This document shows positions 33,601 through 52,221 of a stretch of DNA of 64,000 nt, one piece after another; positions within the stretch are counted from its first letter, which is position 1; each line of letters begins with the position of its first letter. This DNA comes from a virus: positions 1 through 64,000 of IMG/VR virus record IMGVR_UViG_3300027752_001458. The stretch is one strand, 5' to 3'. The notes beneath the pieces were generated by a model. It did not search any database. It saw nothing but the letters and a program-made list of their open reading frames with translations, and was not told the DNA's origin. The position numbers and the translations under genes are program-made.

Positions 33601-34710
33601 TCTTACTGCACGTTTGTCTTTAGGCGGTAACTGGTCACCGACTTCTAAGAATGTGTTCTTGTGGTGCCAAAAGTTAATTCTGCTCCACACGTTATTATCA
33701 GTTGAGCCACGCTCCATGATAATGTAGTCTGGATTTTCCTGAGTGTTATCACTGTCGTACGGTTCGATGTCAAATGCACCTGCGCCGCCCACTGTGTAAA
33801 CTAGTTGTGATCCGAGTGGTGCAACATAGCCGTTCCATAATGGAAGACCTGACTGTGGATCTGTTTGATCGAATGCGTAATCAGGTGCACCTACTTGAGT
33901 GTACTCGCCACCTGCTACTAGTTGTCCCCAGGATTCATAGTTCGTAATGCCTTGTAATCCGCCACTGTTAAAATATGTGCCTGTTGAGCTAGTTTCTATA
34001 AGAGTGTCTTCGACTCCAATAATTGTTTGGTCAAACTGAATATAATCTTCAGTACTGAAAACAGTTGCAAAGTTTTGATCCTTGTTGTGTAGTATAATGC
34101 TTTCGCCTACACCTTCTACAATATATCTGTTTTCATCTTTAAATTTGTTTGGGATAACATAGTTGCCTGCAAAAGTAACAACCATTCCACTTTTTAATGT
34201 AGTTCCTGCGGGTGTTGTGAATGACCTCTGACCTACAATGTCCTTCTCAATGTTTATAGGAGATGCAGATGTACCTTCAACAATAACTGGTGTCGGGCCG
34301 TTTGGACTCCAAAAGTATTCTTGGTAGTTAACAAACTTGTCAATATTAACTGGTGGTAAAAACGTGTATGCTTCAGAATCAAATATTGAATTTTGATTAA
34401 GTGTATTAACACCATAACTTTTAAGCACGTTGATATAGTCCTCATAGAACATAATGTTTGTGCTTTTACCTGTTGTCTGGTCAATAGTACTTACTGCTGG
34501 CTCTAAACTAAACTTGTCTCTATCAGCAGTTGGTTGCAAAATGTATGTATCTTTTGCACTTAACAGGTCCTCTTCTCGTCTACCAACATAAGCAGACATT
34601 GTCTCAACGTTTGCTTTACTAAAAAGTTGCTCAACTGTTGTATCGAAAAAATTCTTTATAACAGGTGTCTGGTGAATTACGGGAAGTTTTGTATATTTTT
34701 TATCAGCCAT
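15625..34710 (-). CDS. Giant (6361 aa) baseplate wedge-like structural protein with YHYH-like and Calx-beta-like inserts
   Basis: Uninterrupted 19-kb ORF directly after the gp6-like gene. C-terminal YFNEVKPYSSKIR motif; internal SPIVGWAFDGFPIYGPYG. Confidence 0.75.
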   Translation of the reverse strand: MADKKYTKLPVIHQTPVIKNFFDTTVEQLFSKANVETMSAYVGRREEDLLSAKDTYILQPTADRDKFSLEPAVSTIDQTTGKSTNIMFYEDYINVLKSYGVNTLNQNSIFDSEAYTFLPPVNIDKFVNYQEYFWSPNGPTPVIVEGTSASPINIEKDIVGQRSFTTPAGTTLKSGMVVTFAGNYVIPNKFKDENRYIVEGVGESIILHNKDQNFATVFSTEDYIQFDQTIIGVEDTLIETSSTGTYFNSGGLQGITNYESWGQLVAGGEYTQVGAPDYAFDQTDPQSGLPLWNGYVAPLGSQLVYTVGGAGAFDIEPYDSDNTQENPDYIIMERGSTDNNVWSRINFWHHKNTFLEVGDQLPPKDKRAVRPIIEFDRNIELQNFGLTGKFAVDMSAEGYVQSEIVGRPTGASIDSVTLQPGNTILLASDDASVSQHAYIISDDGSENVVLTKVADATSPAGLLDGQAGFVPYVAQVGDVITVKFGSKYQGIEYYWTGTEWKAGQQKTKINTPIEFVMYDSSKVRLDSDATYPSSTFTGNNIFGYTPTSSNRTADPVLNFPLEYKNFNNFSEISFTNHIDDYFESYTPFGGTAKKQISGYIYYKKNNAKVTYDTAWRPLEEKLKQRVEDRYIINDSDSESAKRLYHISAVPTNSKSDIAGLVEKSIRIYVNGKRTELFSYDASQVAVIFASFTFSKFDIIDIFTETDTGYFESVNTNGRYHVPGSWHSNLDNADILSISQPEYLEHFKNLIEFQEDHTGDSLGANNSENVKRDIKYADKIMQTDDDLRLSAFLFSNDKFNIKDSMDFVAEEYVKYKNRLKKEIKNFVNSSDYTAMSYSAMLELVLENVIAYNQGKNVFDDTFMIAFGDKYIEEKLVMNNVLKREYTLTNYLDLLKIENTIYLYESDGVNPDKLLCADVDYEITTTLGAVTVTFKTAYTITLGNTIKVRLYDSNRESAQVPSTPSALGMYPITYPEIITDTTFISPIKMVVGHDGSKSVATNDVHDFILLEFEKRVYNATLQQFRNNDSLPDLNVSDIRPGQFRKTGRDRDEYYGLLRSNFNNYITRNDVDFVKNEFYLADDLWTWNYNHGTSKPAHWKGIFEACYDTDRPHTHPWEMLGFTRKPTWWETQYGTSYASSNSNLWSDLEEGIIRQGARENVTNSRYKVDNPYRRIGLKYELPVDASGTLIAPANIIATTATTKTISWAETTTGVSDNNGGANTFIHVDGVSVSQVANVLNITTNNIMNHAVGTFPTADNTSIIQDKASTYKLTSLVGRVDPSSLGTQFANATTTSNTAIGIATNGALITNANSGVTHTDSTTFTYNSMYRNEVSRDNAGGAPDSNNIYGYIQPSPQAVALDNWSTSTHSPIVGWAFDGFPIYGPYGYSDRANASSSIKRIDSSYGLKTVTRATIGGTPTGEFVEDYEYIANSGDLDAYNGRSGPTPEFPAGTYYYVATVDASNKPAYPYTTGPSFAETPTHVSTNNTGTTAVDSTGATFSLTSTLSTVYAADSTLTGKDWKFGDGAPVENAWKISEGYPFAVMQALLLAQPGKFATVFSDPRKPVRRSANPKQLLDRTTNRRIKAKLAEIHGEVTASETTTYTVGFTQYINAFLKFQGLNTTKEFVKPYRSITSKLGHKFAGYVDKDTMTVFSDSYSSTGNSSSLILPQEDIDIGVHVGPYSTTNDFSGVLITYTTAGKYKVEGYNAVKRFFEVEESNTSGPATEVSVGGEAVDFGTYSNSVNYITGTIIKSGYNFYQAKDFSPAGSNVTDTALWQRLPSLPMTNAAEATLYLQGTGIIKKVEYGTVFATVNELFDFLISLGRKQEAMGYDFGEFNGEINDINNWLYSGKQFLFWSIGKWAPGNTLSLSPLASNVKFLAPIGRVSKIIDVDQSQYSILDQEGKSIKTSECEITRDTNLITIIPPTGKQIYGVILYTNEIEHAMVLSNKTIFGDTIYNDVLNQRQRRIKIKGKRTAGWNGTLTAEGYIITPDGLKPNFDTLASDMGRYNEIGHVPVEKQLYEASRRQYGYEERKYLREFELTQDDQYDFYAGMIRSKGTKNSIEVLLNSDKVLVPGSVAVYDEWALKAGDFGDTGNYQTIDIKVSESEITNERQLIQIAYPEDIVSKVKAVEVLDRTTKFYQRPFLEIEPPPADIPGSFEYGGGTTAKATVNIGTDGRISDVTVNEPGYGYTINPSVTVVAAQLLTANITTTFLKPYAVSTANITVADLTSAGNILITDNFSSNVNTIIDLSSVTSVQDVANAINSTNDISANISATFTRTAGAGIEEFYLTIKGNDFTLAEQGAGTTLESTLNLPAKRYQPRQRYSFQTANSTTFSDIIVSVNGGTTTGNIVGAGGSHDWEFDEGSRTNITTNSLLSGNVSQSFTFTPVEVGDGITTTTPLAADNLQIINGSYPHVDVFINGAKLPETSEEALYTITSDIGAGTSTLNFLDCGAIPGAPIQPNSVIEIVERGTIDLEDTYYGDLPGSSMNIKVFANDALAAKLTQMRTFEIYPDSKDDATILIDVDDPIRLPVRPSDMAEKGLWPLTSSVSYVGLVDSKYAPLPNSGYVSKYNVQYQAFDIYDFENLFDVNQLANASKLPKENDTIHFAKGEHEEFEVYKLTSTGSNVSYVEFDEGVGTSFLWADVKLSDIILDNNDNSNVSADYDHTKWFDQVLALKGNNIISPNYANLVSYDGNPIYVTDQLEVDHPITRFVSEEKVAERSVEMGNINYTVPSVNTISTITPQLSGNIINAEAVTLQNAYQYARAEEVTPTTDITIFRSVDAIPNMKVHNKQLTFTINNGQLDGVAQGHWLKFHDNSSSNLNGNIFQVANITPAGEVQLYANTTVLGGMTETVTKANLTFINFGNAKTGNTSVDYTVQIVAPGHPFSVGSNVVFNVDNIGATVGDVFVVKDKTDTTFTLGSALYGTHTALNVITDTATVSLAETTLKVTAVPNALSLKGDSFDFVGESLFDGLTVKFKDESGTELAGASFSPKNIRTEKVLNKNFTERLSTLGNISTPVQGTVENAVTSGTVVNINTAETLEKGMYLFHSTVTEPTQIISVAYDLPNYGSEPAKAIRGADSGTNVITLSSTTGVNVGDYVIVPLVLGHDINDTANSVTVATISGNDITLSQGITSLTVPNPLPAGTYASGDALDASLNNFDINLADGRSFSGDATLYFLHTGDGQVANVTLQNAVTLAADDIVDFAKAIREVEATTPAQEVELVVFDINPASYTGGALNEANLSFTINDATKITTDTDLSTLVNLEYVKINQLSSEDIVESVRRIDTTSNSFVINKTLFDAPRLTLTVASDVTAGTSVTILGNTNRLIEGMRVTGTGVPAGTTIATIVGDTIITLSDNVTLTAGDTVETYRTTYEEATFMGANTVITTGENHTFAIDGSDTLVGNGITVHAYDPDYYNNTFTVVDIPTANTIVIDYPAFSHPYETGGVTYRSEFDYKVYGTDAPGITGKEGFTPFFIADHKGNISFNGANVVTSTYPWHSVEQYAADIKDIMYSKAGMVVKKGSMFININWADVSQKVKDYMANKGKGAVKKPGKNAIPLTAGTTVKNSAAPKGSAAVKVTSGPAKKTTTKAKSNSSDGSQNTYDPTLKTGTGKNGDPKVDNLPTLTPKEVASQALQQALFDQSKSILPGQQELTKPLAQRYLDQQGTTSGGGYSIGGGAFNGAETEYGAGGSQWGTSKQEFDYASGQWESVPSGTSWTRDDIKFTMQTDGTITASDGSVWATSATRLEKGTMGGMGEDYADYGKVYGGQTHSIDKVDPTLKSKIAFTNDFTGDDPANIGIQHASHNCVDAIKHTHEYVETGRSCTVDANGFNGAGTQRVDSKCIHAGDETKGKCDAPKITEYVDNIASCYKPYASGFTAEWKQDSVNEGGTGTFVVQANNITAGETIVVDATGSVDLAADINGGLTTPFTMTFNANGTATKTVTFTADGTTEGSELLKFRLRASTSKGALTGQPSDIVTVNDTSLDPVPTYTGMTANKHRVGENGEEITFTLLGKHLSAGATVTATMSGVSRTDFATGGDLTNSMTLVFAMAQIGSTTKWQATAQVVTRNDVLTEGTETATLTAGATDSNGATVGLVGSSAVSPVGVIIDDTSIAPIPPFERVNYYLYHSSGPSPEVVSFQLAADQSIDEQLNVFFNMYSAEDRMDVYQGTSKYMMNKVVATTNSNSTCTVQTTAEKAQFKKLITNAPGANDGAINSIQRTGDMGGILGGGRKNVGKCSFNYKPGLGRWITIKTSRGVNGSNSAVFYWGFNQLPINQGQQTWYWEKSNAGGVGFASTGSTIASSKNANSQPTTVHSGSGGSGNPGVPINVNIGGGASNSAIGGTFAGATHVWPGPNGGQGSPTTKQNNNGNLVATSPAQQYQFTGVGGNNFGGININHVGNSAGLGTKPNIRQTGQSNSVKRFDNQESFYKGSIKAGPVNFTNSAERPLRPLDGRPSFVAQDGTFSGKTNSPIPTNDTFNPQSNPEKPKARFMTIKLLKKTITGLYQPLIAGGSQASMDVELNKYCMKPKIKLCSSNTWIPGKDGASTAGSGAVATDHSQYNLRDGDTFWINDKQISTSGITGVEAMKARVQQVMGDQIDATIITEDGVKCLQILMRDNTPDVPILRNGCKGGILKEVLDYTVNNKLNVAFSETTTLAGTRTNTNTVNTKVLADTDSDANTADSEVGSVSTTATGTDYISNTIGAQQRKDRNQPSTITQGHNGTGYRRGDILRAVGGVAVSQQSNTGFAGDGMSIAGIQFTRGGRGYGKLDKATGLYQADGSIRITVGGAGTSGYGFEFDADHITVDANTGALVGVAFTDGLRQFMGLQAVTANDGSQLIGTGYVFNNPPTINIIGSGADAVGQVVWANEKPSSKEEVAVFRVTDVDDDGAIIDLAVLHRGLYQTFPGDLNSGVPLEYHVTKNATGTKPGDQTFSSISNTSRGSGTGGRVFLTGRLIGDCRQKGTAIQDMGLQEGAQDPGSFLQNMVDSINANSQKDPNGMPYFTASVDDSGVIPGLRLGTEAGDGIELEGSFPGLLESMNIDSGAYIPEIPPAIDVVSGGASVGDGFNEDGTQPGTGGTAGGGGAGDGTGGGFGVGAGASDGTKTGGPDSGKAIRFQSRSPFAIGTAIGDLVQSGQLYKYELRRLDGASPISITASDVSAIHVNPYALQSQRISNDLNANGTVKVNVTSLSNVWVDNYQNTNKWAYLESGTVIRQQEKLVDTKFIRDVFTYDEDSAEKEFDIDLYDPFKGILPGFIGKEIDFRTERDPVVYDPRKVKYGRKDVGLRWWDTSTLRYTWYEQGPGTYSSTGYNNYERSQNWGEMFPGSRVVINEWVESLTAPSNTDNFITETHADKNGKPKTYYYFWQSDLSIVSDMARVNFQKERSTLELTRLLQDIDSERVAYSGIISPDAMVVNTMGSLIRTDDSILSVNFKRKENENAQKHTSWTLAGEGDRDGTIPNNLSMKLIDSLAGYNGLDQAVPGSGLSVSERYGSKFRPRQTMFKDIKKARKQMFVILNDIFRQLQMETTFLDWRDNLPTDYALLERVNWYEQIRIDKTNNSTVYYDNTYKPLRKVADTKQFGLLKNVLDKSIIQVQKDDSARYTLYEYSKKTDKFTLIAMENETVRWTNTVHSSGQSLAIGKEVRLILNALYSNVFVNTYSAHWNKFFFEMLKYAYAEQGELDYAFKTTYLKIVKEETDLVPFKGFKIDNFDKAVEYFNEVKPYSSKIRNYSDIKKAPVEIMSGSTSDFDRPPFYDEGLKAVRILDKNVPADALTLSTDKDYTGFSNTPSKIRSMDQTIVFDRVKGALYENTTGGSVQTIVADGTTSVFNLNFEVQDSDRLEIFVNGRKIDKTSTSANTTVTNYLVDVGNAFISFTDEAGVNNAVGLPGNGDKIEVKYIDGFDPTLETMNVSIAKNIVAIETASNTSISNTSLQWTAPERLWKFNPSVRTAVTNAFDLAYGVGASSNTSITTNISVVSEMVSSGNLTTALNLVKSKVHATFQGQELDGNIFTDVVPGTHPTTHYTDTRGFDANTWDDGLFDREVEVNNFVGVFSEDSQGNVNYRVDDETVYGFDSVTFLKSQYGPDRPEELIVVQPLETLVMDVMTQGNTQISTDSTDVRFMVFMDMFGQTEYYRRNITPLTTVTSPLAIWDTEIMFADVTKIPNATKQDRSVIWINGERIEYENKNLATKSISGIIRGTKGTTPNTIIPVGAEVYNGEESENIRLRDANGLLVRDPEDFNWIKPVEIFDDTIPFDDDWDGSGNLTVTSANVNYANVTYDGDTDNITYGFDSSWDGSGTFNPTGRPGGNNNSVLNWPLFDEDEVNGWDSGNKTVKEAGSITDKGTVLKSNVSIIDFLHNFE

Positions 34711-34715
34711 TTTTA

Positions 34716-37700
34716 TTAATATCCACTTGAGTCGCTTGAGTTATTGCCTGAACTAGTTGCACTAGAACCTGTAATCTGATTGTTAATCACGTTATCTTGT
34801 GTAGTAGTTGCTTTGTTCTTACCTTCTTCCGCTACATAGTTACCCATGTATGTTGTTATGCCGTTTGGCATATAAAATGTCTTTCCAAAGAAATCATGTG
34901 TATGCGATGTACCGTTGCCTACAAAGTCTGATGCTTCTTTTGTTGGATACAATGGATAGTAACCATTGATTGCAAAAGGACCAATCTCACTCTCTGGGTT
35001 TTCATATGAAGTAAATGTTGGTGTGCCACTGGTAGGCTTAATGTTCTCTTTAGTGATTTTGTCAACGATGTCAATATCGTCAACTGACGCTGTACTTAAA
35101 AATAACTCGTCACTGTCGCTCTTCACTTGAAATAAGTCTCCGAAAACACCTGTTGCTCGTTTAGGTACGATAACAATACTTCCGATCGAGTTACCTACTT
35201 CTTGATGTATGTAACTACTTAGTTCCGTAAAGTAGAATGTATCGCCAAATTCCCAATTGTCTATACTGAAATATTTAGTAACTGATTTAATAATTTTGGT
35301 TTTAATCTCGTTGTCACTTAGTGACGTGCCTGGTAGTCTGACTACTTTGAATCTTGCTTGTAGTTCTGCCTGTGCATCGTCGCCAAATAATAACTTAAAT
35401 CTGCCGCTCTTGAATAAAATTTGATCACTAGCCGCTTTGTAAGTTTGTAAAATTTGGAACTCTGTTTCAAGTTCTAATGTGCTTGGCTCTTCGGGCCATG
35501 CTGTTCCTGGAACGTTAATATACGAAAGTACTTCATCGTAGTAAGTGTCTGTTAACATGAAAAACTCATGTACATTACTAATACTAGGATCAATTCTCAT
35601 ATCGTTATTTGCAATATGGTTCCACTTAAATACTACACTTTCTTGTGTAGCGTTTTGCGTATCTTGTGTAAAGCTCTTGCCAATTTTAGCTCTATGCTTT
35701 GAACTTTCATAGTTGTTAACAACATTAAGGTTTGTGCTACTGTAGGACATCAAGTAGACTTTACCTGTATCTTTTGCATAAACTTTCTTGTTATGGAACT
35801 TGCCGTCAACATTGTTAAACGTGTCTACAATGGCTTTCGATTTAACTAGGAAAATATCGTAGTCTGCAATATTGTAATATGTGCCTGATAAGTTTAATGC
35901 ACTACCAGTCGAGTTGCCTGCAATCTTATCTTTAGTTGCACTAAAGTTAACACCTGGCTCTCTGCGTAAATCTAATATTCCTGTCTTAACAGGCTTAGTA
36001 TAAGTGTATCCGTCGAAGCTATCGAAGTCTTCAAATATCACAATATCGTTTGGCCCAACAAAATCATCGAACTGTATAGGATTATCCGGACTGTCATCGT
36101 TTGTTGAATTAAACGGAGTTACTTGCACTTTTCTAGCATCAGTATGCCCATCTGCGTAAACAAAGTTCTTAACAGCACTCCAAGTAATAGGAGTATCTAG
36201 TCTGTCTTTTGCTCTAGCATAGTTTACATTAATAAGGTCTTTACTAGCCAAGCCAGTTGAATCGACAGCATAATGTCTGTTGTCATCAAAGTCCACAATT
36301 GTTAATGTGCCTGTCTGTGTGGCAACGTTTGCATTGGATACATAAATGTGTCCACCGCCTCTGTTAGAAATAATGTTGGACTCATATGTAGCCGTGTCAT
36401 GCCTGTATGCTATGTTGCCTTGTGCATTTAGTATCGGGAAGCCAAACGTTGTGCTTGTAAAGTCAATGTTTACTTTACTAGGTAATGAGTGTACAACACC
36501 TGTGTTATTTGCAATAGTAACATTTATGTTACTTGTTAAATCCGATGTATCGAAGTTAGAACCTAACGGTATAGTTAAGTTGTGTACAAATGTGTTACCA
36601 GATGAATTACCATTCTTAAATAAACCAAAGTTTGAGTTAACTGTGAACTCTACTTGGCTATAGTTTACACTTCTTGATTTCAAAGGTATGTCAGTAAAGT
36701 TAACACCATCTTTGGTTGAGTACCACTTATCACCAATGTAATCTGGTGTAGGTGTCGTTGTATCTCTCCACTCAAAGCCTTCTAATGTCTGACCTTGTGT
36801 GTTAAGTGTTGTTAGCTCTAGCGTATCATATTTTGCTCTACCTGTAAAACTATCTACAATTCTATTTTGGTTAATGTTATAAAATCTGCAATCTTCATAA
36901 CTTTCAAAAATATACTTTGTGCCTCTTAGTTCTACATTGTATCTAAACGACAACGTGTCAATTGGCTCATACATAAACTTCATGAGCCAACTTCTATCTC
37001 TGTTGTTTCCGGATGTATCTTCTGAGTTACCGATATCAAACGTGTTAGTCAAGTCCATATCATTATTATTAACAACATAGAACGTGTCTGTTGTTGCATT
37101 ATAGCCAACACCGAATGTTTGCTTTTTAGCAATAGCAGATGAAATTTTGTTGCTTTCGACTTCGTAAAACTTACTTCTTAATGTAGTAATAATTTCTTTA
37201 CCAGCCCAGCCATCTCTTACATTTTCACTTAATGCGAATGGACCGTTTGCTGTAGTACTAGAGCTAACACGTCTGCCCGAGTTTCTAACAGAAACTATTT
37301 TAACCCACTTATACTTTGTAATATCTGCAGGATCTACGAACTTTATCATGTGCCCGGGCTGTATAAGGGACAATTCTGTTTTGGAAATATTTACGTCACT
37401 TACTGTACCTGTTTGAGTAAAGGTCTCAGTCATGTAGCCTGTATCATTTTCCGTTGTCTTAGGAAGCGTCTTCCATACTATGCCGTACTGGTCTAATTTA
37501 AATTTGTTTGGCTGTGTCTCAATCCACTTATTTCTAAAATCGCTATAGATAAAATCTCTTAATTCTAGATTCTTTAAGTATATAGGGAACACTTTTTCAA
37601 TTTGTTCTTTTGCTGTGTTGTTACCGTCAATAATAAACGAGTAACTTTGCGGAGAATCTTCTTTGTATAACGCTCCGTCTTCAGCAATAGTAGTTGTTGT

Positions 37701-39125
37701 CTGGAATGTGCTAGTAGGATCGGTAATATCGATATATCTACTGTGTCCAGCATGTGTTTTATTAGTAACTTTTAGTTTTCGTATGTTATTGCTTTTTGCT
37801 AAAGGCAATACTTGATAATCTTGTGCTGACACCATTCTGTCTTGAGCATAAAATGCCTGTGGTGCTCTTTCCTTAATCCCTGCCAATGTCTCTGATGGCA
37901 ATGAATTGTTAATGCTTGTTTGTAATCTAGCAGTAATAGTGAGTACATACTTCTCACCTGTCTGAGTTTCGTATGTTATGTCTGAAACTACGTTGCCCAT
38001 GTCGTCAGGTTGAATACTGTATCTCTCGTCTGCACTTGCTCTGTAAAACGCTCTGTAGTTGCCTACTGGAACGTTTGCAAAGTTACCATCAGCGAACTGT
38101 AATTTAATACCGCCTGTACCTAAGTTTTGTATTGCATACAAGTTAGGTGACTTTTTCGCTAAAGTATTGTACTGTAGTGTCTGCCCAACGGTGTTAGGAA
38201 TCTGTTTCCACTTGGACAGCACACCACCGATAGTACTTACTTGTTGAAAATATACATCAGTTTCATTAATGCCGTCAACAGCAATAGTCTGTGATCTATT
38301 TTCTTCTGGGGTCTCAAAATCGAAAGTTTGTGACTGCAATACTCCTTGTTTGAACATTAAGAAGAATCCGTTATTTGCACTGGAAAGCCCTAGCCCGTCA
38401 TTTCTATGAATTAATCCAAAGTTGTTTGATGGGTCAGGATGCTTTTCAAAGAAGAAATTGTTATCTTCAAAGTCAGCGTTTACGATTTCAAAGTCTCTAC
38501 TAACACCGTTTATACTCTTTTTAAACTTGTAAACAAATGGCGCATTTATTTGAGTGTTAACTTCATATAAGTCGGTAATAATTGAGTTTATTGAACCAGT
38601 CTTAACTGGCTTACTAAATCTATTCACATTGCCAAAGGCACTGTTCATTACAGTAATAAATTGTTCGTAACTGTCTGGGTTGTTTGCATCATTCCAAGTA
38701 ATAGCTCTATTACCTATGTCTGATCCGCCACTATCCGTTAGTGGCTCTGTGGTGCTTACACTTACAATTTTTAACAATCCACCTGCCGCTACGTTCCTTT
38801 TAGGATTATAGCCTAACTGTCTTGCTAGTTTGTATACTGAGTCTTTTCTTTCTGCTGTTTCAAGAAAGTTTTCTCTAGTGTTTACATCCATTCTAAATGC
38901 AATACTCTGTGCCATGTATGCAAGTAATTCTATGATAGCAATGAATTCAGAACTTTCAATGTAATCGTTGAAGTTTTCAGGGAAGTTAGTTCTAATGTAC
39001 TCAATCATCGCTGTACGAATTGTTTCAAAATCGTATGCTTGGAAGTTTACATTGCTGTAAGCCTTATAGGCTATATCCCAATCTTCTGCCGCGAACAAAT
39101 TGTTCTGTCTGTTACTCGTTGCCAT
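34716..39125 (-). CDS. gp6: Baseplate wedge subunit, T4 gp6-like
   Basis: YDFETIR..FNDYIESSEF..ENFLETAERKDSV..LGY, QDRMVSAQDY; follows gp25. Confidence 0.85.
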   Translation of the reverse strand: MATSNRQNNLFAAEDWDIAYKAYSNVNFQAYDFETIRTAMIEYIRTNFPENFNDYIESSEFIAIIELLAYMAQSIAFRMDVNTRENFLETAERKDSVYKLARQLGYNPKRNVAAGGLLKIVSVSTTEPLTDSGGSDIGNRAITWNDANNPDSYEQFITVMNSAFGNVNRFSKPVKTGSINSIITDLYEVNTQINAPFVYKFKKSINGVSRDFEIVNADFEDNNFFFEKHPDPSNNFGLIHRNDGLGLSSANNGFFLMFKQGVLQSQTFDFETPEENRSQTIAVDGINETDVYFQQVSTIGGVLSKWKQIPNTVGQTLQYNTLAKKSPNLYAIQNLGTGGIKLQFADGNFANVPVGNYRAFYRASADERYSIQPDDMGNVVSDITYETQTGEKYVLTITARLQTSINNSLPSETLAGIKERAPQAFYAQDRMVSAQDYQVLPLAKSNNIRKLKVTNKTHAGHSRYIDITDPTSTFQTTTTIAEDGALYKEDSPQSYSFIIDGNNTAKEQIEKVFPIYLKNLELRDFIYSDFRNKWIETQPNKFKLDQYGIVWKTLPKTTENDTGYMTETFTQTGTVSDVNISKTELSLIQPGHMIKFVDPADITKYKWVKIVSVRNSGRRVSSSTTANGPFALSENVRDGWAGKEIITTLRSKFYEVESNKISSAIAKKQTFGVGYNATTDTFYVVNNNDMDLTNTFDIGNSEDTSGNNRDRSWLMKFMYEPIDTLSFRYNVELRGTKYIFESYEDCRFYNINQNRIVDSFTGRAKYDTLELTTLNTQGQTLEGFEWRDTTTPTPDYIGDKWYSTKDGVNFTDIPLKSRSVNYSQVEFTVNSNFGLFKNGNSSGNTFVHNLTIPLGSNFDTSDLTSNINVTIANNTGVVHSLPSKVNIDFTSTTFGFPILNAQGNIAYRHDTATYESNIISNRGGGHIYVSNANVATQTGTLTIVDFDDNRHYAVDSTGLASKDLINVNYARAKDRLDTPITWSAVKNFVYADGHTDARKVQVTPFNSTNDDSPDNPIQFDDFVGPNDIVIFEDFDSFDGYTYTKPVKTGILDLRREPGVNFSATKDKIAGNSTGSALNLSGTYYNIADYDIFLVKSKAIVDTFNNVDGKFHNKKVYAKDTGKVYLMSYSSTNLNVVNNYESSKHRAKIGKSFTQDTQNATQESVVFKWNHIANNDMRIDPSISNVHEFFMLTDTYYDEVLSYINVPGTAWPEEPSTLELETEFQILQTYKAASDQILFKSGRFKLLFGDDAQAELQARFKVVRLPGTSLSDNEIKTKIIKSVTKYFSIDNWEFGDTFYFTELSSYIHQEVGNSIGSIVIVPKRATGVFGDLFQVKSDSDELFLSTASVDDIDIVDKITKENIKPTSGTPTFTSYENPESEIGPFAINGYYPLYPTKEASDFVGNGTSHTHDFFGKTFYMPNGITTYMGNYVAEEGKNKATTTQDNVINNQITGSSATSSGNNSSDSSGY

Positions 39126-47971: not shown

Positions 47972-48991
47972 ATGGCAAACCTTTTTGAAAGGGCCGCATG
48001 TTTTACAGATATACATTACGGCTTAAAACAAAACAGTAGACAGCATCTTAAAGACTGTCACAATTTTATAGATTGGTTTATAGCAGAAGCAAAGGCTCGA
48101 GATTGTGAGACTTGCTTCTTCTTAGGCGACTGGCATCATCACAGAGCAAGTATTAATATTGCTACGATGAATGCTACTATTAAAGATCTTAAAAAGCTGA
48201 ACGACAACTTTAGCAAAGTTTACTTTATAACTGGTAATCACGATTTGTACTATAGAGAGAAACGTGATCTTAACAGTGTAGAATTTGCTAGGGATTTAGA
48301 AAACTTTGTTATGGTAGACGAACACTTCTTGCAAGACGGTGTTGCTATTATTCCATGGCTAGTCGGTGACGAACATAAACTGTTAAACAAAGTAGATTGC
48401 AAGTACATGTTTGGGCATTTTGAGTTACCATACTTTAAAATGAATGCAATGGTAGAGATGCCAGACCATGGTGGTATCACAGCAAAAGACTTGTCTAATC
48501 CAGAATATGTATTCAGTGGTCACTTCCACAAGCGACAATACAAAGGCAATATCCATTATATGGGTAATGCGTTCCCGCACAACTATGCTGATGCACAAGA
48601 TAACGAGCGTGGTGCTATGTTCCTCGAATGGGACCAAGAGCCACAATATGTTAATTGGGCAGAATGTCCTAAGTATGTTACTATGGGACTTAGAGAATTA
48701 CTAGAAGCACCTGAGAAATTCTTAGACGAGAATACACATGCTAGGATTAAATTAGACGTTGCTATTAGTTACGAAGAGGCAAACTTTATAAGAGAAACAT
48801 TTGCTGAAAAGTTTAGTGTTAGAGAACTACAACTTATTGTCGTAAAAGAAGAAGACGAAGTTTTCGATGGAGAAGAAATTAATTTTGAGAGTGTTGACCA
48901 AATTGTAATTAGTCAATTGGAAACAATCGAAAGTCAATTGGTAGAAACACATCGACTAATTGAAATTTATAGGAATATTGAAATTGCTTAA
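47972..48991 (+). CDS. gp47: Recombination endonuclease subunit (Mre11/SbcD-like)
   Basis: TDIHYG, LGDWHH, GNHD, GHF, SGHFH metallophosphoesterase motifs. Confidence 0.92.
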   Translation: MANLFERAACFTDIHYGLKQNSRQHLKDCHNFIDWFIAEAKARDCETCFFLGDWHHHRASINIATMNATIKDLKKLNDNFSKVYFITGNHDLYYREKRDLNSVEFARDLENFVMVDEHFLQDGVAIIPWLVGDEHKLLNKVDCKYMFGHFELPYFKMNAMVEMPDHGGITAKDLSNPEYVFSGHFHKRQYKGNIHYMGNAFPHNYADAQDNERGAMFLEWDQEPQYVNWAECPKYVTMGLRELLEAPEKFLDENTHARIKLDVAISYEEANFIRETFAEKFSVRELQLIVVKEEDEVFDGEEINFESVDQIVISQLETIESQLVETHRLIEIYRNIEIA

Positions 48992-50759
48992 AATTAAAAA
49001 TGTAACAGCCAAGAACTTTATGAGTGTAGGTAACAACTTGCAAGCCGTAACGTTCGATACTGATTCATTGACATTAGTGTTAGGTCATAACTTAGACCTA
49101 GGTGGCGATGGTAGTAGGAACGGTACAGGTAAGACTACTATTATTAACGCACTCAGCTATGCACTTTACGGCGAGGCACTGACTAACATCAGAAAAGATA
49201 ATCTTATTAATAAGACAAATGGTAAAGGAATGATTACCACTGTTGACTTTGAGATTAAAGGAACTGAGTATAGAATTGAACGTGGTCGAAGACCTAACGT
49301 GTTAAAGTTCTATATCGATGGTAACGAATCGGCTGACAACGAACAGCAAGGTGATATGCGTGAAACTCAAAAAGACATCGAGCGTGTCATTGGGTTCCCA
49401 CATAATATGTTTAAGCATTTAATTGCATTAAACACATACACTGAACCGTTCCTCAGTATGAAAACAAATGACCAACGAGACATGATTGAACAGTTGTTGG
49501 GCATTACTGAAATTAGTTCTAAGGCAGAAGTGCTAAAGGAATTACTCAAGTCTACTAAAGACAGTATTAAAGACGAAGAGTCTAGGATACATGCAGTACA
49601 GAATGCTAACAAACGTATCGAGTCCAGTATTAAAGACATCGAAAGTCGGAGTAAGGCTTGGGGCAGACTCAAAGGAGATAAAGTTCATGGATTGCAAACT
49701 AGTTTAGATACATTAGAACACACTGACATTAAAGCAGAGCTAGACTGTCACAGAAAGATTGTGGATATTAATGAAAAACAAGCAAAGCTAACGGCACTTA
49801 AAACAGACTTGACCACAAGAACAACGTCAATGAATCGAAGTGACAATAAACTTACTACCTTAGAAGCTAACTTAACAAAAGCACTCGAAGGTGTATGTCC
49901 TACATGCGAGCAAGGTACTGCACATTTAAGCACACATGAAAAGTATACTGATGATTTGAGTGAAGAGATTAAAGAAGAGCAACGGTACAATGTTGAGCTA
50001 GTTGATAAAATTAGAGAGATTACTTCTACTATTAAAACACTTGGCAATATTCCTGAGACGCCTATTACGTTTTATAACAAAATGGAAGATGCGTTACAGC
50101 ACAAACATAATGTTGAAACGTTACAGGCACAAATTGAAGAAAAGATTAAAGAAGAAAATCCGTATGTCGAGCAAGTAGATCAACTTAGAACATCGGGTAT
50201 CGAAGAAGTAAGTTATGAATCAATAAACGATTTCACTAGTTTAAAAGAACACCAAGAGTTCTTGCATAAACTATTAACCAGTAAAGACAGTTTTATTCGT
50301 AAAAAGATTATTGACCAAAACTTACAATACTTAAACTACCGACTGAACTACTATTTAGAAAAGTTGGGCTTACCACACGATGTTAAATTTAACAGTGACT
50401 TAACTGTTGATATTACAGAGTACGGTAGAGACTTAGACTTTGATAATTTAAGTAGGGGCGAACGTAACAGACTTATACTAGGTATGAGTTGGGCGTTTAG
50501 AGACATTTACGAAAGTCTTAACCAGCCTATGAACTTGATGTGTATCGACGAACTAGTAGATAGTGGCATGGACACAACAGGTGTCGAGAATGCACTAGCA
50601 GTTCTTAAGAAGATGGGCCGAGAGTCAAACAAGAATGTATTCCTTATTTCGCACAAAGAAGAATTACAAGGGCGTGTTAACAATGTCTTGTATGTTGTTA
50701 AAGAAGGAGGATTCACTAGTTACAGTAATGACATAGAAATCCTTGATGAGAATACGTGA
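48984..50759 (+). CDS. gp46: Recombination ATPase subunit (Rad50/SbcC-like)
   Basis: Walker A NGTGKTT, zinc hook CPTC, signature LSRGE, Walker B IDE, ISH. Probable TTG start at 48984. Confidence 0.93.
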   Translation: MLKIKNVTAKNFMSVGNNLQAVTFDTDSLTLVLGHNLDLGGDGSRNGTGKTTIINALSYALYGEALTNIRKDNLINKTNGKGMITTVDFEIKGTEYRIERGRRPNVLKFYIDGNESADNEQQGDMRETQKDIERVIGFPHNMFKHLIALNTYTEPFLSMKTNDQRDMIEQLLGITEISSKAEVLKELLKSTKDSIKDEESRIHAVQNANKRIESSIKDIESRSKAWGRLKGDKVHGLQTSLDTLEHTDIKAELDCHRKIVDINEKQAKLTALKTDLTTRTTSMNRSDNKLTTLEANLTKALEGVCPTCEQGTAHLSTHEKYTDDLSEEIKEEQRYNVELVDKIREITSTIKTLGNIPETPITFYNKMEDALQHKHNVETLQAQIEEKIKEENPYVEQVDQLRTSGIEEVSYESINDFTSLKEHQEFLHKLLTSKDSFIRKKIIDQNLQYLNYRLNYYLEKLGLPHDVKFNSDLTVDITEYGRDLDFDNLSRGERNRLILGMSWAFRDIYESLNQPMNLMCIDELVDSGMDTTGVENALAVLKKMGRESNKNVFLISHKEELQGRVNNVLYVVKEGGFTSYSNDIEILDENT

Positions 50760-51181
50760 GCCAGTGGACATATAAAGGTAAACAAGTAGACGAGCTACCG
50801 ACAGACTGCGAAGCATTTGTTTACCTAATCACAAACTTAACTAGCGATAAGAAGTACGTTGGTAAAAAGTTAGCAAAGTTCAAAACAACCAAGCCTCCCT
50901 TAAAGGGAAAGAAGAATAAACGCCGTGGCACTAAAGAAAGTGACTGGCGTACATATTGGGGCAGTTCGGATCACTTAAATGCTGATGTGTTAGAGCTAGG
51001 CGAAGATAAGTTTACAAGAGAAATATTGCATTATTGCCCAACTAGAGGCATAGCAAGTTACATCGAAGCAGAAGAACAATTTAATCGAAATGTTCTCTTG
51101 ACAGATGAGTATTATAATGGTATAATAAACGTCAGAGTAGGCGGTTCAAAAATACTAAAGGAACATTTTGGAAAGACATAA
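50756..51181 (+). CDS. Small GIY-YIG-like endonuclease
   Basis: AFVYLITN...KKYVGKK, Y.GSS, F.REIL, E..YYN motifs. Confidence 0.75.
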   Translation: MSQWTYKGKQVDELPTDCEAFVYLITNLTSDKKYVGKKLAKFKTTKPPLKGKKNKRRGTKESDWRTYWGSSDHLNADVLELGEDKFTREILHYCPTRGIASYIEAEEQFNRNVLLTDEYYNGIINVRVGGSKILKEHFGKT

Positions 51182-51189
51182 CTATATAT

Positions 51190-51704
51190 TGAACATGGCA
51201 CACACCGACACCCAGTCTCGCTAATAAAAACGATCCCAGACACAAAGTCAAACTAATAAAGTACAACACATAGGACTATGCACCAGCCCCAACCGAGGCC
51301 AATATCGGACTCTTCGACAAACCTGAACAAGGTGCGAGAATTAGAGATGCATAGCGGTAAAGATACGACACATACGAAAAACTGTATTAGAAGGATGTAG
51401 GCACTGAGAAAAAGCAACCTACAAGTTTGTATAACTAAACTCTACAAGGTTATACAAATTTCCGTGAGATGAGACGGTAGTGTATGGGGACAGAAAGCTC
51501 ACTGGTTCCTTTAAGCACCCGAGTTAGAGATGATGATGGCTCATATGATGACAATATGACCGAACAGCTTCTCCTTGCAATAGGAGAAGTATGACTCCAA
51601 CTATATGATAACTTTAAATTACTTCTTTAATTTAAAAAAGTTACTTCAAGAACTGAAATGAATGAAATGATTGAAGTTAGTAGAAGTAAAGATACGAAGT
51701 ATCT
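51190..51704. other. ~520-bp non-coding, highly structured element (candidate ncRNA or replication origin)
   Basis: No ORF of 60 aa or more, about 10 inverted-repeat stems, one pair of 22-bp direct repeats. Confidence 0.6.
51207..51260 (+). repeat. Two 22-bp imperfect direct repeats, 32-bp period
   Basis: GACACCCAGTCTCGCTAATAAA (51207-51228) and GACACAAAGTCAAACTAATAAA (51239-51260), 17/22 identical. Confidence 0.6.
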
Positions 51705-52221
51705 ATAAAGTATTAAACAATTCAACAGTATCTCTGTAAGACAAACGTAAATTAACTGTATACAAATAAAAGTCTTTGTTTAATGAATGTAATGAAGCTC
51801 CATGGAATTTAGTTACGTCTAGTATACACACTTCACCTGGATGTAACATTTTATTGTGTTCTGAGTCTTTATGTATTATTTCAATTGGAACATCTTCTAA
51901 GTTAAACATTATATTAGTTTTTCTTGTTAGAGGGTTCTTCCATCCCATTAACCAATCCTGATGTAGTTTCACCATTGTACCTTGCTTAACAGTTTCTATT
52001 GCTACACTATGCTCCGCAATGTCTAACGGCAACGGAGTAGCGTCTATTATTTGTTGTTGTAGGCTTTGAGGCATGTCGCGGAGTAAAAAAATGTGCTGAT
52101 CCATTTCAGCACGGTCTTCTACTAAATGAAACTCACTAGCCTCTTTGAACTGCGTTATAGGTTCAACAAGTTGTCGCATTGCGTCAACATCATAGTCCCA
52201 CTTTAAAATTGTGCTATACAT
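51703..52221 (-). CDS. Cupin/2OG-Fe(II) oxygenase-like protein
   Basis: LHQD...R.TNI...LDVTKFHG (HxD...H). Confidence 0.55.
   Translation of the reverse strand: MYSTILKWDYDVDAMRQLVEPITQFKEASEFHLVEDRAEMDQHIFLLRDMPQSLQQQIIDATPLPLDIAEHSVAIETVKQGTMVKLHQDWLMGWKNPLTRKTNIMFNLEDVPIEIIHKDSEHNKMLHPGEVCILDVTKFHGASLHSLNKDFYLYTVNLRLSYRDTVELFNTL

What the first reader, a model, noticed from the sequence alone, without database searches (positions are those of the whole stretch)
50756..51704. Large structured non-coding element directly downstream of a stand-alone GIY-YIG nuclease
This is the only ~0.5-kb gene-free stretch in a tightly packed window, and it is full of complementary stems. CTATGCA 51276-82/TGCATAG 51348-54 encloses CCGA/TCGG. 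CATAC 51371-75/GTATG 51482-86 closes a multi-way junction containing TGTAGG 51396-401/CCTACA 51418-23, TTTGTATAAC 51426-35/GTTATACAAA 51449-58 and CCGT/ACGG. Further stems are TCATAT 51541-46/ATATGA 51603-08, CTTCTCCT 51568-75/AGGAGAAG 51582-89, and TTACTTCT 51619-26/AGAAGTAA 51682-89 around ACTTCAA/TTGAAGT. It ends in the mini-hairpin AGATAC-GAA-GTATCT. It starts immediately after a 141-aa GIY-YIG gene that seems to lack the separate C-terminal DNA-binding domains of homing endonucleases, at the end of the gp55-47-46 operon. I recognise no tRNA, tmRNA, RNase P or group I core motifs. Inference: either an undescribed large ncRNA that may partner the nuclease, or an ssDNA-folding/R-loop replication origin that the nuclease nicks.
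Basis: partly seen in the sequence, partly recalled or inferred. Interest (0 to 1): 0.85.

Follow-up and report, generated by a model that had tools for sequence, protein, structure and literature searches.

The report
New twin-box RNA beside phage nuclease
The gene-free stretch after a small GIY-YIG nuclease gene of this uncultured marine giant phage encodes a real, roughly 350-450-base, doubly knotted RNA of an uncatalogued family that always travels with the nuclease gene and carries two short boxes that mutate together; what it does is unknown.

Summary
Window 51266-51615 (+ strand), with a variable leader (51182-51265) and trailer (to 51704), is a conserved, non-coding, highly structured RNA. 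On 47 distinct homologues, 77 pairs in 15 helices are 95.7% paired, against 30-44% when partners are slid. Forty-six pairs show compensatory changes. Two pseudoknots covary. Invariant G-U pairs fix the + strand. No Rfam 15 family matches, and I found no paper describing it. The element has no coding signal. Exactly matching contigs cover it in marine metatranscriptomes from four studies.

It lies directly behind the 141-aa SegE-type GIY-YIG gene in more than 100 viral contigs, even where that pair is inverted relative to gp46. Other contigs carry a different RNA core at the same place. Cultured phages with the nuclease gene (Melnitz, Synechococcus B3) have no copy of the window-type core.

Two direct repeats ('twin boxes', 51541-52 and 51601-12) covary by identity, not by complementarity, and this is unexplained.

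Its origin idea has no support. Its 'nuclease partner' idea is open.

This scan had already reported the same family in two other genomes (e1-5335699, e1-5338567), and my independent analysis agrees with those reports.

Best reading: a stable, trans-acting folded RNA co-transcribed with the nuclease gene.

The parts
50756..51181 (+). Stand-alone 141-aa SegE-type GIY-YIG nuclease gene. Its GTG start overlaps the gp46 stop. The RNA is always found just downstream on the same strand.
   Evidence: ORF. Pfam PF19835 at 1.2e-33, residues 4-124. More than 8000 clusters of about 140 aa. AF2 model pLDDT 81, with weak fold hits to the I-TevI catalytic domain and the PD-T4-3 GIY-YIG enzyme.
51098..51126 (+). 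Perfect sigma-70-type promoter TTGACA-17-TATAAT with an extended TG, inside the 3' end of the nuclease ORF. The predicted start is near 51133.
   Evidence: 12 of 12 match. The same perfect promoter is present in only 10 of 55 distinct homologous loci, and none of the others reaches 10 of 12. RNA-library contigs begin at 51112 and 51140 (weak).
51182..51265 (+). Variable C/A-rich 5' leader with two 11-nt mini-hairpin repeats, GACACCCAGTC (51207-17) and GACACAAAGTC (51239-49). Copy number and sequence differ among relatives.
   Evidence: Alignment A1. An RNA contig variant skips 51153-51237.
51276..51354 (+). Domain I, a three-way junction. It contains H1 (51276-82 / 51348-54), the conserved joiner CC-N-GCCCCAA, H2 (51293-96 / 51305-08) and the long hairpin H3 (51310-16 / 51335-46, with inner stem 51321-24 / 51330-33).
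   Evidence: Pair counts, helices 1-5. RNAalifold.
51355..51521 (+). Domain II, a multi-helix junction closed by CGG 51355-57 / CCG 51519-21. It contains H5 (51362-66 / 51384-88), H6 (51396-401 / 51418-23, with a near-invariant 16-nt loop CACUGAGAAAAAGCAA), H7 (51424-36 / 51448-60), H9a (51480-83 / 51515-18) and H9b (51486-91 / 51505-10).
   Evidence: Helices 6-9, 13 and 14. Invariant blocks.
51464..51502 (+). Pseudoknot PK1: GUGAG 51464-68 pairs with CUCAC 51498-502, which is the loop of H9b. Relatives have GAGCG/CGCUC, GCGUA/UACGC and GUUGA/UCAAC.
   Evidence: Column scan. Helices 11-12 at 98.6-100% paired with double changes. Divergent loci L021, L043 and L160.
51440..51529 (+). Pseudoknot PK2: CUCUA 51440-44, the loop of H7, pairs with UAGAG 51525-29.
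   Evidence: All 5 pairs show changes on both sides, 95.7% paired (helix 10). These are among the top mutual-information pairs.
51541..51552 (+). Twin box 1, UCAUAUGAUGAC.
   Evidence: Covaries by identity with box 2.
51568..51589 (+). Hairpin H10 between the twin boxes, CUUCUCCU/AGGAGAAG.
   Evidence: Helix 15: 4 of 8 pairs have double changes.
51601..51612 (+). Twin box 2, CUAUAUGAUAAC.
   Evidence: A2 columns 323/411 read AA:23, UU:12, GG:12, with no discordant sequence. There are at least 10 joint changes on a tree built from other columns.
51613..51689 (+). Variable AU-rich trailer with helix H11 (51641-47 / 51683-89), whose loop is rich in NUGA repeats.
51690..51704 (.). Terminal hairpin AGAUAC-GAA-GUAUCU. 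It overlaps the stop codon of the convergent - strand ORF. It probably serves as a 3'-end or terminator hairpin for one or both transcription units.
   Evidence: 4 pairs, 3 of them with compensatory changes; the C-GAA-G loop is conserved.
51703..52221 (-). Convergent 172-aa ORF of no known family. It is a flanking gene, not part of the element.

Best explanation
Window 51266-51615 (+ strand), with a variable leader and trailer, is the gene for a large, compactly folded non-coding RNA of a family that no catalogue holds. The core has two multi-helix domains locked by two pseudoknots, then a 3' domain with a hairpin flanked by two 'twin boxes'.

Shown:
- The fold is conserved by compensatory change.
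- The + strand is the RNA strand.
- The region is not coding.
- It is present in RNA libraries.
- It is fixed directly downstream of the minimal GIY-YIG nuclease gene.

Inferred:
- The RNA is made as the 3' part of the nuclease gene's transcription unit. The window's sub-lineage also has a perfect sigma-70 promoter inside the end of that gene.
- It accumulates as a stable RNA.
- It acts in trans as a folded RNA or RNP scaffold, not as a DNA element and not as a required subunit of the nuclease.
- The invariant 16-nt H6 loop and the twin boxes are the likely contact surfaces. The twin boxes present the same short sequence twice to one shared partner, either a dimeric protein or a nucleic acid outside the RNA.

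I put the existence of a genuine new structured RNA family at about 0.97. The confidence given below is for the trans-acting, nuclease-independent mode of action.
For: Conservation: blastn and nhmmer find the element in about 90 loci, 60 of them distinct, and in most of 76 loci anchored on gp46.

Structure: 77 pairs are 95.7% paired, against 30-44% when partners are slid. Forty-six pairs have changes on both sides, and 0 of 500 shuffles reach the observed values. PK1 and PK2 covary. G-U pairs that never change (for example GU in 46-47 of 47 sequences at four positions) would be A-C mismatches on the other strand. Folding z-scores are -2.9 (+ strand) and -1.3 (- strand).

Not coding: 535 of 607 indel runs are not multiples of 3, variable columns show no 3-base periodicity, and the median longest ORF is 31 aa.

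Not a known family: no Rfam hit at gathering thresholds, only noise at E up to 10, and none in 12 related loci.

Expression: contigs with zero mismatches from four metatranscriptome studies cover 51112-51641.

Independence from the nuclease:
- The complete genomes of Melnitz and Synechococcus phage B3 carry the nuclease gene but no copy of the RNA core.
- The Melnitz-like contigs have nuclease proteins 76-82% identical to the window's, the same range as the RNA-bearing ones.
- At least two very different RNA cores follow an almost unchanged protein.
- No protein column tracks the twin-box state.
- The promoter is absent in 45 of 55 loci. This explains the fixed order and orientation by co-transcription alone.
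Against: The linkage to the nuclease gene is tighter than co-transcription strictly requires. It survives inversion relative to gp46 and the insertion of a gene between gp46 and the nuclease gene. It also holds across different RNA core types.

The protein has no DNA-binding domain and carries an invariant, very basic loop, KKLAKFKTTKPPLKG-KNKRRG.

No trans partner has been identified. The RNA ends were not mapped, because only assembled contigs were available. Those runs were selected for holding this stretch, so abundance relative to the flanking genes is not established.
Confidence: 0.5

Rival explanations
1. The RNA is the partner subunit of the minimal GIY-YIG nuclease. It would form an RNP in which the RNA supplies the target recognition, regulation or scaffolding that the missing DNA-binding domain would otherwise give. 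This is comparable in logic to omega-RNA with IscB/TnpB, or to the RNase P RNA with its small protein.
For: The RNA sits directly behind the nuclease gene on the same strand in essentially all loci, including about 16 where the pair is convergent with gp46 rather than following it. An optional 0.6-0.8 kb gene is often inserted between gp46 and the nuclease gene, but almost never between the nuclease gene and the RNA. Other RNA core types occupy the same position. The protein is a bare catalytic domain with an invariant basic loop. In the window, the RNA's promoter lies inside the ORF's 3' end.
Against: Melnitz-like contigs and cultured Melnitz carry the nuclease gene but no long RNA next to it, and the contig proteins are 76-82% identical to the window's. 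The complete genomes of Melnitz and B3 have no copy of the type-A core. The protein stays about 75-90% identical while the RNA core changes type entirely. No protein column covaries with the twin boxes. No candidate target sequence was found in the window.
Confidence: 0.22
2. The element is a cis-acting 3' untranslated element of the nuclease mRNA. It would control that mRNA's stability, processing or translation, for example to limit a toxic nuclease, and would have no trans function.
For: It is always on the same strand, at the 3' end of the transcription unit, with no own promoter in most genomes. A terminal hairpin lies at the convergent junction.
Against: A 350-nt two-domain fold with two pseudoknots and near-invariant loops is far more than 3'-end protection needs. 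A sub-lineage has acquired a perfect independent promoter for it. Nuclease genes without it exist.
Confidence: 0.1
3. The RNA is self-processing or serves as a template. The twin boxes would be two identical processing or re-alignment sites that bound the 46-72-nt segment carrying H10. That segment would be excised, circularised or copied repeatedly. Identity of two flanking sites is what cleavage at repeated sites, or template jumping as in telomerase or DRT2 RNAs, requires.
For: Identity covariation of the two boxes: at least 10 joint changes and none discordant. The same arrangement occurs in type-B RNAs. The large knotted fold is of ribozyme grade.
Against: No internal guide that covaries with the boxes was found. 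No reverse transcriptase or ligase gene is nearby. The inter-box period is not a multiple of 3, and concatemers have no open frame in sequences whose period is not a multiple of 3 (35 of 47), so there is no neo-like gene. No known self-cleaving ribozyme family matches.
Confidence: 0.08
4. The element acts at the DNA level, as a replication origin (ssDNA hairpins or an R-loop) or as a nuclease target site.
For: The leader has two in-phase 11-nt repeats, 32 bp apart. A strong promoter reads into the element, as at T4 R-loop origins (from my own knowledge of T4 oriF/oriG).
Against: Many conserved G-U pairs and a strand-asymmetric folding score show selection on one RNA strand. The pseudoknots and the GNRA-capped hairpin inserts seen in some relatives (GAAA or GCAA loops) are RNA features. 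The leader repeats are the least conserved part. The cumulative GC-skew minimum is at about 46-47 kb, not here. The promoter is absent in most relatives.
Confidence: 0.03
5. The stretch is a decayed remnant of the nuclease's lost C-terminal DNA-binding domain, or hides small protein genes.
For: Free-standing GIY-YIG homing enzymes usually have such a domain (general knowledge). Short ORFs of 31-54 aa exist in the stretch.
Against: There is no codon periodicity, indels are mostly not multiples of 3, and the median longest ORF is 31 aa. Conservation follows base pairs, not frames. The 140-aa form is the norm in more than 8000 relatives.
Confidence: 0.01

Closest known systems
HEARO / omega-RNA with IscB, and reRNA with TnpB (OMEGA systems)
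   Same: A large, pseudoknotted RNA is encoded right next to a small nuclease gene on the same strand, possibly starting inside the end of the ORF. The nuclease on its own lacks a target-recognition domain. HEARO was likewise first found as an 'endonuclease-associated' structured RNA (PMC13565253).
   Different: The nuclease fold is different (GIY-YIG, not RuvC/HNH). There is no transposon context, no recognisable variable guide segment and no sequence or Rfam similarity. The protein is only 141 aa and exists without the window-type RNA in related phages. Binding was not tested.
GOLLD (RF01998), ROOL (RF03087) and OLE: large ornate RNAs of bacteria, phages and prophages
   Same: The RNA is large, has many helices, is conserved by covariation, is phage-borne and has unknown function. 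It is a candidate for RNA-only or RNP higher-order assembly.
   Different: No match to their Rfam models. The core is smaller (about 350 nt). It is not near tRNA genes and is fixed next to a nuclease gene. The twin-box identity covariation has no counterpart that I know of.
Group I introns carrying GIY-YIG homing endonuclease genes (for example T4 td / I-TevI)
   Same: A GIY-YIG gene is physically coupled to a large structured RNA in a T4-like phage. There is a GNRA-loop / receptor-like motif (UAUGG ... CCU-AAG), which is a resemblance I recall, not one I tested.
   Different: The element does not interrupt a gene: it lies between convergent gene ends. The helix order does not give the P3-P7 pseudoknot topology. 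Rfam Intron_gpI does not match even at E = 10.
T4 Seg proteins (free-standing GIY-YIG homing endonucleases), Pfam PF19835 SegE_GIY-YIG
   Same: The protein's catalytic domain belongs to this Pfam family. It is inserted between conserved genes: PA5oct has the gp47-gp46 pair with neither the nuclease gene nor the RNA.
   Different: It has no C-terminal DNA-binding domain. It is a fixed, highly conserved gene in this phage lineage rather than a sporadic one. Seg genes are not known to carry an RNA (my knowledge).
Bacterial RNase P (about 120-aa protein plus about 400-nt catalytic RNA)
   Same: The size ratio of a small basic protein to a large knotted RNA is similar.
   Different: No RNase P core motifs and no Rfam match. 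This is an analogy only.

Membership tests
Any Rfam 15 family (4227 models, including GOLLD, ROOL, HEARO, OLE, IMES-1 to -4, group I/II introns, RNase P, tmRNA, 6S and the self-cleaving ribozymes) | Score at or above the family's gathering threshold | tested here: not met
   0 hits in the whole window. Only noise (E >= 3.1, all far below threshold) for 50700-52000 in sensitive mode. 0 hits in 12 related loci.
Group I intron | Interrupts a host gene whose exons flank it | tested here: not met
   It lies between the stop of the nuclease ORF (51181) and the stop of a convergent ORF (51703). gp46 and the nuclease gene are complete.
Group I intron | P3-P8 / P7 pseudoknot core topology | tested here: not met
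   The covariation-supported helices and two pseudoknots have a different order and nesting. RF00028 does not match.
OMEGA-type nuclease-guide RNA (omega-RNA / reRNA) | Encoded adjacent to or overlapping the nuclease gene on the same strand | tested here: met
   47-110 nt downstream of the nuclease gene in nearly all loci. The promoter lies inside the ORF end in the window.
OMEGA-type nuclease-guide RNA (omega-RNA / reRNA) | RuvC (with or without HNH) nuclease of the IscB/TnpB family, in a transposon context | tested here: not met
   The protein is a GIY-YIG domain. There is no transposase and no transposon ends. The locus is a fixed position in a phage genome.
OMEGA-type nuclease-guide RNA (omega-RNA / reRNA) | RNA binds the nuclease and directs cleavage through a variable guide | not testable with these tools
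   This needs biochemistry. In silico, no protein column tracks the variable boxes and no target was found in the window.
Type III toxin-antitoxin RNA (ToxI-like) | Tandem array of near-identical repeats upstream of an endoribonuclease toxin gene | tested here: not met
   There are only two short (about 12 nt) boxes inside a large unique fold. The RNA lies downstream of a DNA-nuclease-type gene.
T4-type R-loop replication origin (oriF/oriG) | Promoter plus downstream unwinding element, with no requirement for a conserved RNA fold | tested here: not met
   The promoter is present in only 10 of 55 loci. Selection is on RNA base pairs, including G-U. There is no skew inflection here.
Box C/D (k-turn) RNA | C box RUGAUGA paired with D box CUGA, forming a k-turn next to a terminal stem | tested here: inconclusive
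   Box 1 reads N-UGAUGA and the trailer holds CUGA/UUGA in the window. The D-like motifs are not conserved in position in relatives. No protein partner is known in bacteria-phage systems.
SegE-type GIY-YIG nuclease domain (Pfam PF19835), for the protein | Profile match above the curated cut-off, with GIY...YIG, Arg, Glu and Asn motifs | tested here: met
   116 bits against a cut-off of 25. Invariant VY..YxG, R, E and N columns. Weak fold matches to GIY-YIG enzymes.

The most novel reading that the evidence does not exclude
The RNA and the 141-aa GIY-YIG protein form a ribonucleoprotein nuclease. The large RNA would replace the missing DNA-binding domain, and the twin boxes, which always carry the same variable letters, would specify what is bound or cut. 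That would make it the first RNA-directed or RNA-scaffolded member of the GIY-YIG superfamily, carried as a core module by abundant marine giant phages.
Probability: 0.15. Interest if true: 0.95.

Novelty: categorically new. Interest (0 to 1): 0.8.

Why it matters
Large RNAs with several domains and pseudoknots are rare. Those whose function has been worked out have often turned out to be ribozymes, RNP cores or guide RNAs; HEARO, for example, became the IscB omega-RNA.

This family is widespread in uncultured marine giant T4-like phages. The exact nuclease protein is seen on 133 contigs of up to 336 kb. The RNA is present in ocean metatranscriptomes and is genetically welded to a minimal nuclease gene.

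Two features give direct experimental handles. The twin boxes change together by identity, which ordinary RNA pairing does not explain. Different RNA cores sit behind the same gene.

If the RNA proves to partner the nuclease, it would open a new class of RNA-dependent nucleases. If not, it is still a new structured phage RNA for host take-over or anti-defence biology, and a good cryo-EM target.

Tried and rejected
- Known RNA families: Rfam at gathering thresholds and in sensitive mode, and ARAGORN for tRNA/tmRNA, gave nothing.
- Coding or decayed domain: rejected.
- Neo-like concatemer ORF between the boxes: rejected. The period is 46-72 nt and not a multiple of 3 in 35 of 47 sequences.
- Tiny ORF after H10 and tandem stop codons in the boxes: the frame is not conserved across clades (read).
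- Box 1 pairing with box 2: fails in the UU haplotypes.
- A cis strand complementary to the boxes: none was found by mutual information or by RNAduplex against the rest of the RNA.
- Alternate pairing of both boxes with the upstream GAUG-rich strand: it fits some haplotypes (L017, L085), but the variable letter does not covary with that strand (identical upstream strands occur with different box letters, read).
- Target search for the box sequence in the window: 13 hits at up to 2 mismatches against 6.4 expected, none convincing.
- Protein/box co-variation: none.
- Cellular genomes: a 21-base gapped pattern gave 6 hits in 185,579 genomes, all of them chance by nhmmer.
- Cultured relatives: blastn against phage records found only the nuclease gene. 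The covariance model R1 found no copy in the complete Melnitz, B3 or PA5oct genomes.
- PDB sequence search of the nuclease: no significant hit.
- Supplements of the 2023 catalogue of viral structured RNAs (PMC10690425) are not held, so I could not check whether this motif is among its more than 10,000 unnamed candidates.
- RNA-library contigs do not reach beyond 51641, and flanking genes are only patchily covered. These are contigs from runs chosen for holding this stretch, so neither point is evidence about RNA ends or abundance.


Full report
**1. What is at the coordinates**

The + strand carries gp47 (47972-48991, metallophosphatase fold) and gp46 (48960-50759, AAA_23/SMC_N). A 141-aa ORF follows (50756-51181), whose GTG start overlaps the gp46 stop. 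It is a SegE-type GIY-YIG domain and nothing else: PF19835 at 1.2e-33 covers residues 4-124. The next gene is a convergent - strand ORF that ends at 51703. So 51182-51702 lies between two gene ends.

The window belongs to a 109,675-bp IMG/VR record that CheckV rates 28% complete. The identical nuclease protein occurs on contigs of up to 336 kb. The closest cultured gp46, at 53% aa identity, is from the jumbo Pseudomonas phage PA5oct. This is therefore an uncultured marine giant T4-like myovirus.

**2. Is the structure more than chance?**

On its own, the + strand folds better than dinucleotide shuffles (z = -2.9, 0 of 100 shuffles as good). The - strand does not (z = -1.3).

The decisive evidence is comparative.
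- blastn found the stretch at 71-88% identity in about 30 loci that had been fetched through flanking genes.
- A 14-mer scan plus an nhmmer profile raised this to about 90 loci, 60 of them distinct.
- Seventy-six loci fetched through gp46 alone mostly carry it too.

On an alignment of 47 distinct sequences (A2) I wrote a structure of 77 pairs in 15 helices, including two pseudoknots.
- 95.7% of cells are standard pairs, against 30-44% when the 3' partners are slid by 1-3 columns.
- 46 pairs have a change on both sides.
- 0 of 500 shuffles reach any of the five observed measures.
- PK1 (GUGAG 51464-68 with CUCAC 51498-502) appears in divergent relatives as GAGCG/CGCUC, GCGUA/UACGC and GUUGA/UCAAC.
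- PK2 (CUCUA 51440-44 with UAGAG 51525-29) has double changes at all five pairs.
- Several G-U pairs are invariant. That fixes the + strand as the functional strand and argues for RNA, not DNA.
- Some relatives insert GNRA-capped hairpins (GUC-GAAA-GAC, UAC-GCAA-GUA) after the 5' strand of PK1.
- UAUGG (51483-87) and CCU..AAG (51508-15) resemble a tetraloop receptor. That is a resemblance from memory, not a test.

The region is not coding. In total, 535 of 607 indel runs are not multiples of three, variable columns are spread evenly over the three phases, and the median longest ORF is 31 aa.

Details are in the observation check.

**3. Is it a known RNA?**

No Rfam 15 family reaches its threshold in the window or in 12 related loci. 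The sensitive scan gives only noise. ARAGORN finds no tRNA or tmRNA.

Literature searches found no description of a GIY-YIG-associated RNA. A 2026 review of nuclease-guide RNA systems mentions GIY-YIG only as a protein family. A 2023 catalogue of more than 10,000 unnamed viral RNA candidates could contain it, but its supplements are not held.

This scan had already met the family in two other genomes, in reports e1-5335699 ('twin-box', 'multiply knotted') and e1-5338567. I read those after my own analysis, and they agree with it.

**4. Context**

In loci found through the RNA alone, through the nuclease gene alone or through gp46 alone, the RNA lies 47-110 nt behind the nuclease gene on the same strand.

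Two rearrangements are informative.
- In about 16 distinct loci the pair nuclease-then-RNA is convergent with gp46-gp47 instead of following them (for example L203).
- In many loci a 0.6-0.8 kb gene sits between gp46 and the nuclease gene. Only four distinct loci (L058, L068, L097, L253) have anything between the nuclease gene and the RNA.

PA5oct has gp47-gp46 followed directly by convergent genes, with neither the nuclease gene nor the RNA.

The perfect promoter inside the end of the ORF (51098-51126) is present, always as a 12-of-12 match, in only 10 of 55 distinct loci. In most genomes the RNA must therefore be transcribed from the nuclease gene's own unit, and that alone can explain the fixed order.

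Contigs with zero mismatches from four different metatranscriptome studies cover 51112-51641, starting at 51112 and 51140. This shows presence in RNA libraries. It is no more than a hint about RNA ends.

**5. The nuclease without the RNA, and the RNA in other forms**

The nuclease family is very large: more than 8000 clusters, all about 140 aa, with an invariant basic loop. The AF2 model (pLDDT 81) gives only weak fold hits, the best of which are GIY-YIG enzymes.

Cultured Methylophilales phage Melnitz and Synechococcus phage B3 carry the gene, followed by gaps of 148 and 112 nt and then ordinary genes. A covariance model of the core (R1) finds no copy anywhere in their complete genomes.

Among the 80 closest nuclease genes, the downstream DNA falls into several groups:
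- the window type (52 distinct);
- a divergent sub-type that keeps the H6 loop and PK1 (L021, L043, L060);
- a second, unrelated-looking conserved non-coding core, 'type B' (23 loci);
- mosaics, with a type-B-like core but the window-type leader and trailer (L026);
- further groups that I did not resolve.

Type B again has two boxes flanking a hairpin, and they change together: CAUGAAG to CAUAAAG in L016, to CAUGAUG in L073, and A to G in L026.

**6. The twin boxes**

Box 1 (51541-52, UCAUAUGAUGAC) and box 2 (51601-12, CUAUAUGAUAAC) flank hairpin H10.

The strongest coupling in the whole alignment is identity between their variable letters: AA:23, UU:12, GG:12, with none discordant. Further positions follow the same rule (UU/CC/AA and UU/AA), as does the tail (GAUGAC/GAUAAC, GAUGAG/GAUAAG, GAUGUC/GAUAUC). 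On a tree built from the first 300 columns, the main position changes at least 10 times, always in both boxes. Block recombination of the 3' domain could inflate that count. Even so, at least seven distinct haplotypes each keep the two boxes alike.

I could not explain this:
- by pairing of box with box;
- by a cis-complementary strand;
- by alternate pairing with the upstream GAUG-rich strand;
- by translation;
- by a concatemer ORF;
- by co-variation with the nuclease protein.

What remains is a shared external partner, or two identical processing or re-alignment sites.

**7. Weighing the mechanisms**

That this is a genuine, uncatalogued, structured RNA family I hold at about 0.97.

| Mode of action | Weight | Main reasons |
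|---|---|---|
| Stable trans-acting RNA, merely co-transcribed with the nuclease gene | 0.5 | Best explains nuclease genes that lack the RNA, changing RNA cores behind an unchanging protein, and the independent promoter in one sub-lineage |
| RNA partner of the nuclease | 0.22 | Supported only by the exceptional linkage and the missing DNA-binding domain |
| Cis-acting 3' element of the nuclease mRNA | 0.1 | |
| Self-processing or template RNA | 0.08 | |
| DNA-level origin | 0.03 | Contradicted by strand-specific RNA-type covariation and by the position of the skew minimum |
| Hidden coding region | 0.01 | |

**8. Novelty**

No known family or system accommodates this RNA. The closest analogies are nuclease-associated guide RNAs (HEARO/omega-RNA) and large ornate phage RNAs (GOLLD, ROOL). 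These are analogies in context and size only.

Noticed in passing
L013, L016, L018, L032, L037, L050, L054, L061, L067, L070, L071, L073, L078, L250, L254, L281-L284, directly after the nuclease gene (for example L078:3421-4046): A second conserved, gene-free, structured-looking element ('type B') follows the same GIY-YIG gene in at least 23 loci. It is not detected by the window-type profile or by covariance model R1. It has its own twin boxes, (C)UCACAUGAAG and UCUACAUGAAG, which change together. The divergent window-type relatives (L021, L022, L052, L060) match its 3' half, so the family seems modular.
   Followed up: partly
L026:3417-4070 (also L027); L029 group (L029, L030, L031, L046, L065, L076): L026 is a mosaic: the window-type leader (CUAUAUAUUGAAC, GACACCAAGUC repeats) and trailer are combined with a type-B-like core. 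The L029 group has yet another long non-coding stretch behind the nuclease gene, which I did not analyse.
   Followed up: no
L206:3440-4180 (Methylophilales phage Melnitz), L207:2786-2896 (Synechococcus phage B3), L024 group: Cultured Melnitz and B3, and a group of Melnitz-like contigs, have the nuclease gene but only a 112-148 nt gap after it. In Melnitz that gap contains a TATAAATA late-promoter-like box and is followed by ordinary small genes.
   Followed up: yes
window 15625-34710 (- strand): A single open reading frame of 6361 aa, followed by one of 1469 aa (34716-39125). These are giant proteins, consistent with a jumbo phage. I did not examine them.
   Followed up: no
window 51153-51237: One metatranscriptome contig (run X1, depth 14.9) joins 51153 to 51237 and so skips 83 nt. 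This fits natural length variation of the repeat-bearing leader rather than splicing, because relatives differ in the same place.
   Followed up: partly
loci L211, L213, L222, L227, L234, L238, L242, L246 and others, between gp46 and the nuclease gene: An optional gene of about 0.6-0.8 kb is inserted between gp46 and the nuclease gene in many relatives. I did not identify it.
   Followed up: no
window 51179-51200 and homologous positions: The sequence around and just after the nuclease stop codon (ATAACTATATATYG, or TATAAGTAGG in another clade) is conserved beyond the ORF. It resembles a one-mismatch T4-type late-promoter box, so it may be a start or processing signal for the RNA in genomes that lack the sigma-70 promoter.
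   Followed up: no
window 51690-51704: The conserved C-GAA-G-capped terminal hairpin overlaps the stop codon of the convergent 172-aa ORF. The same kind of hairpin ends the type-B and divergent elements, so it may be a shared bidirectional 3'-end signal.
   Followed up: partly
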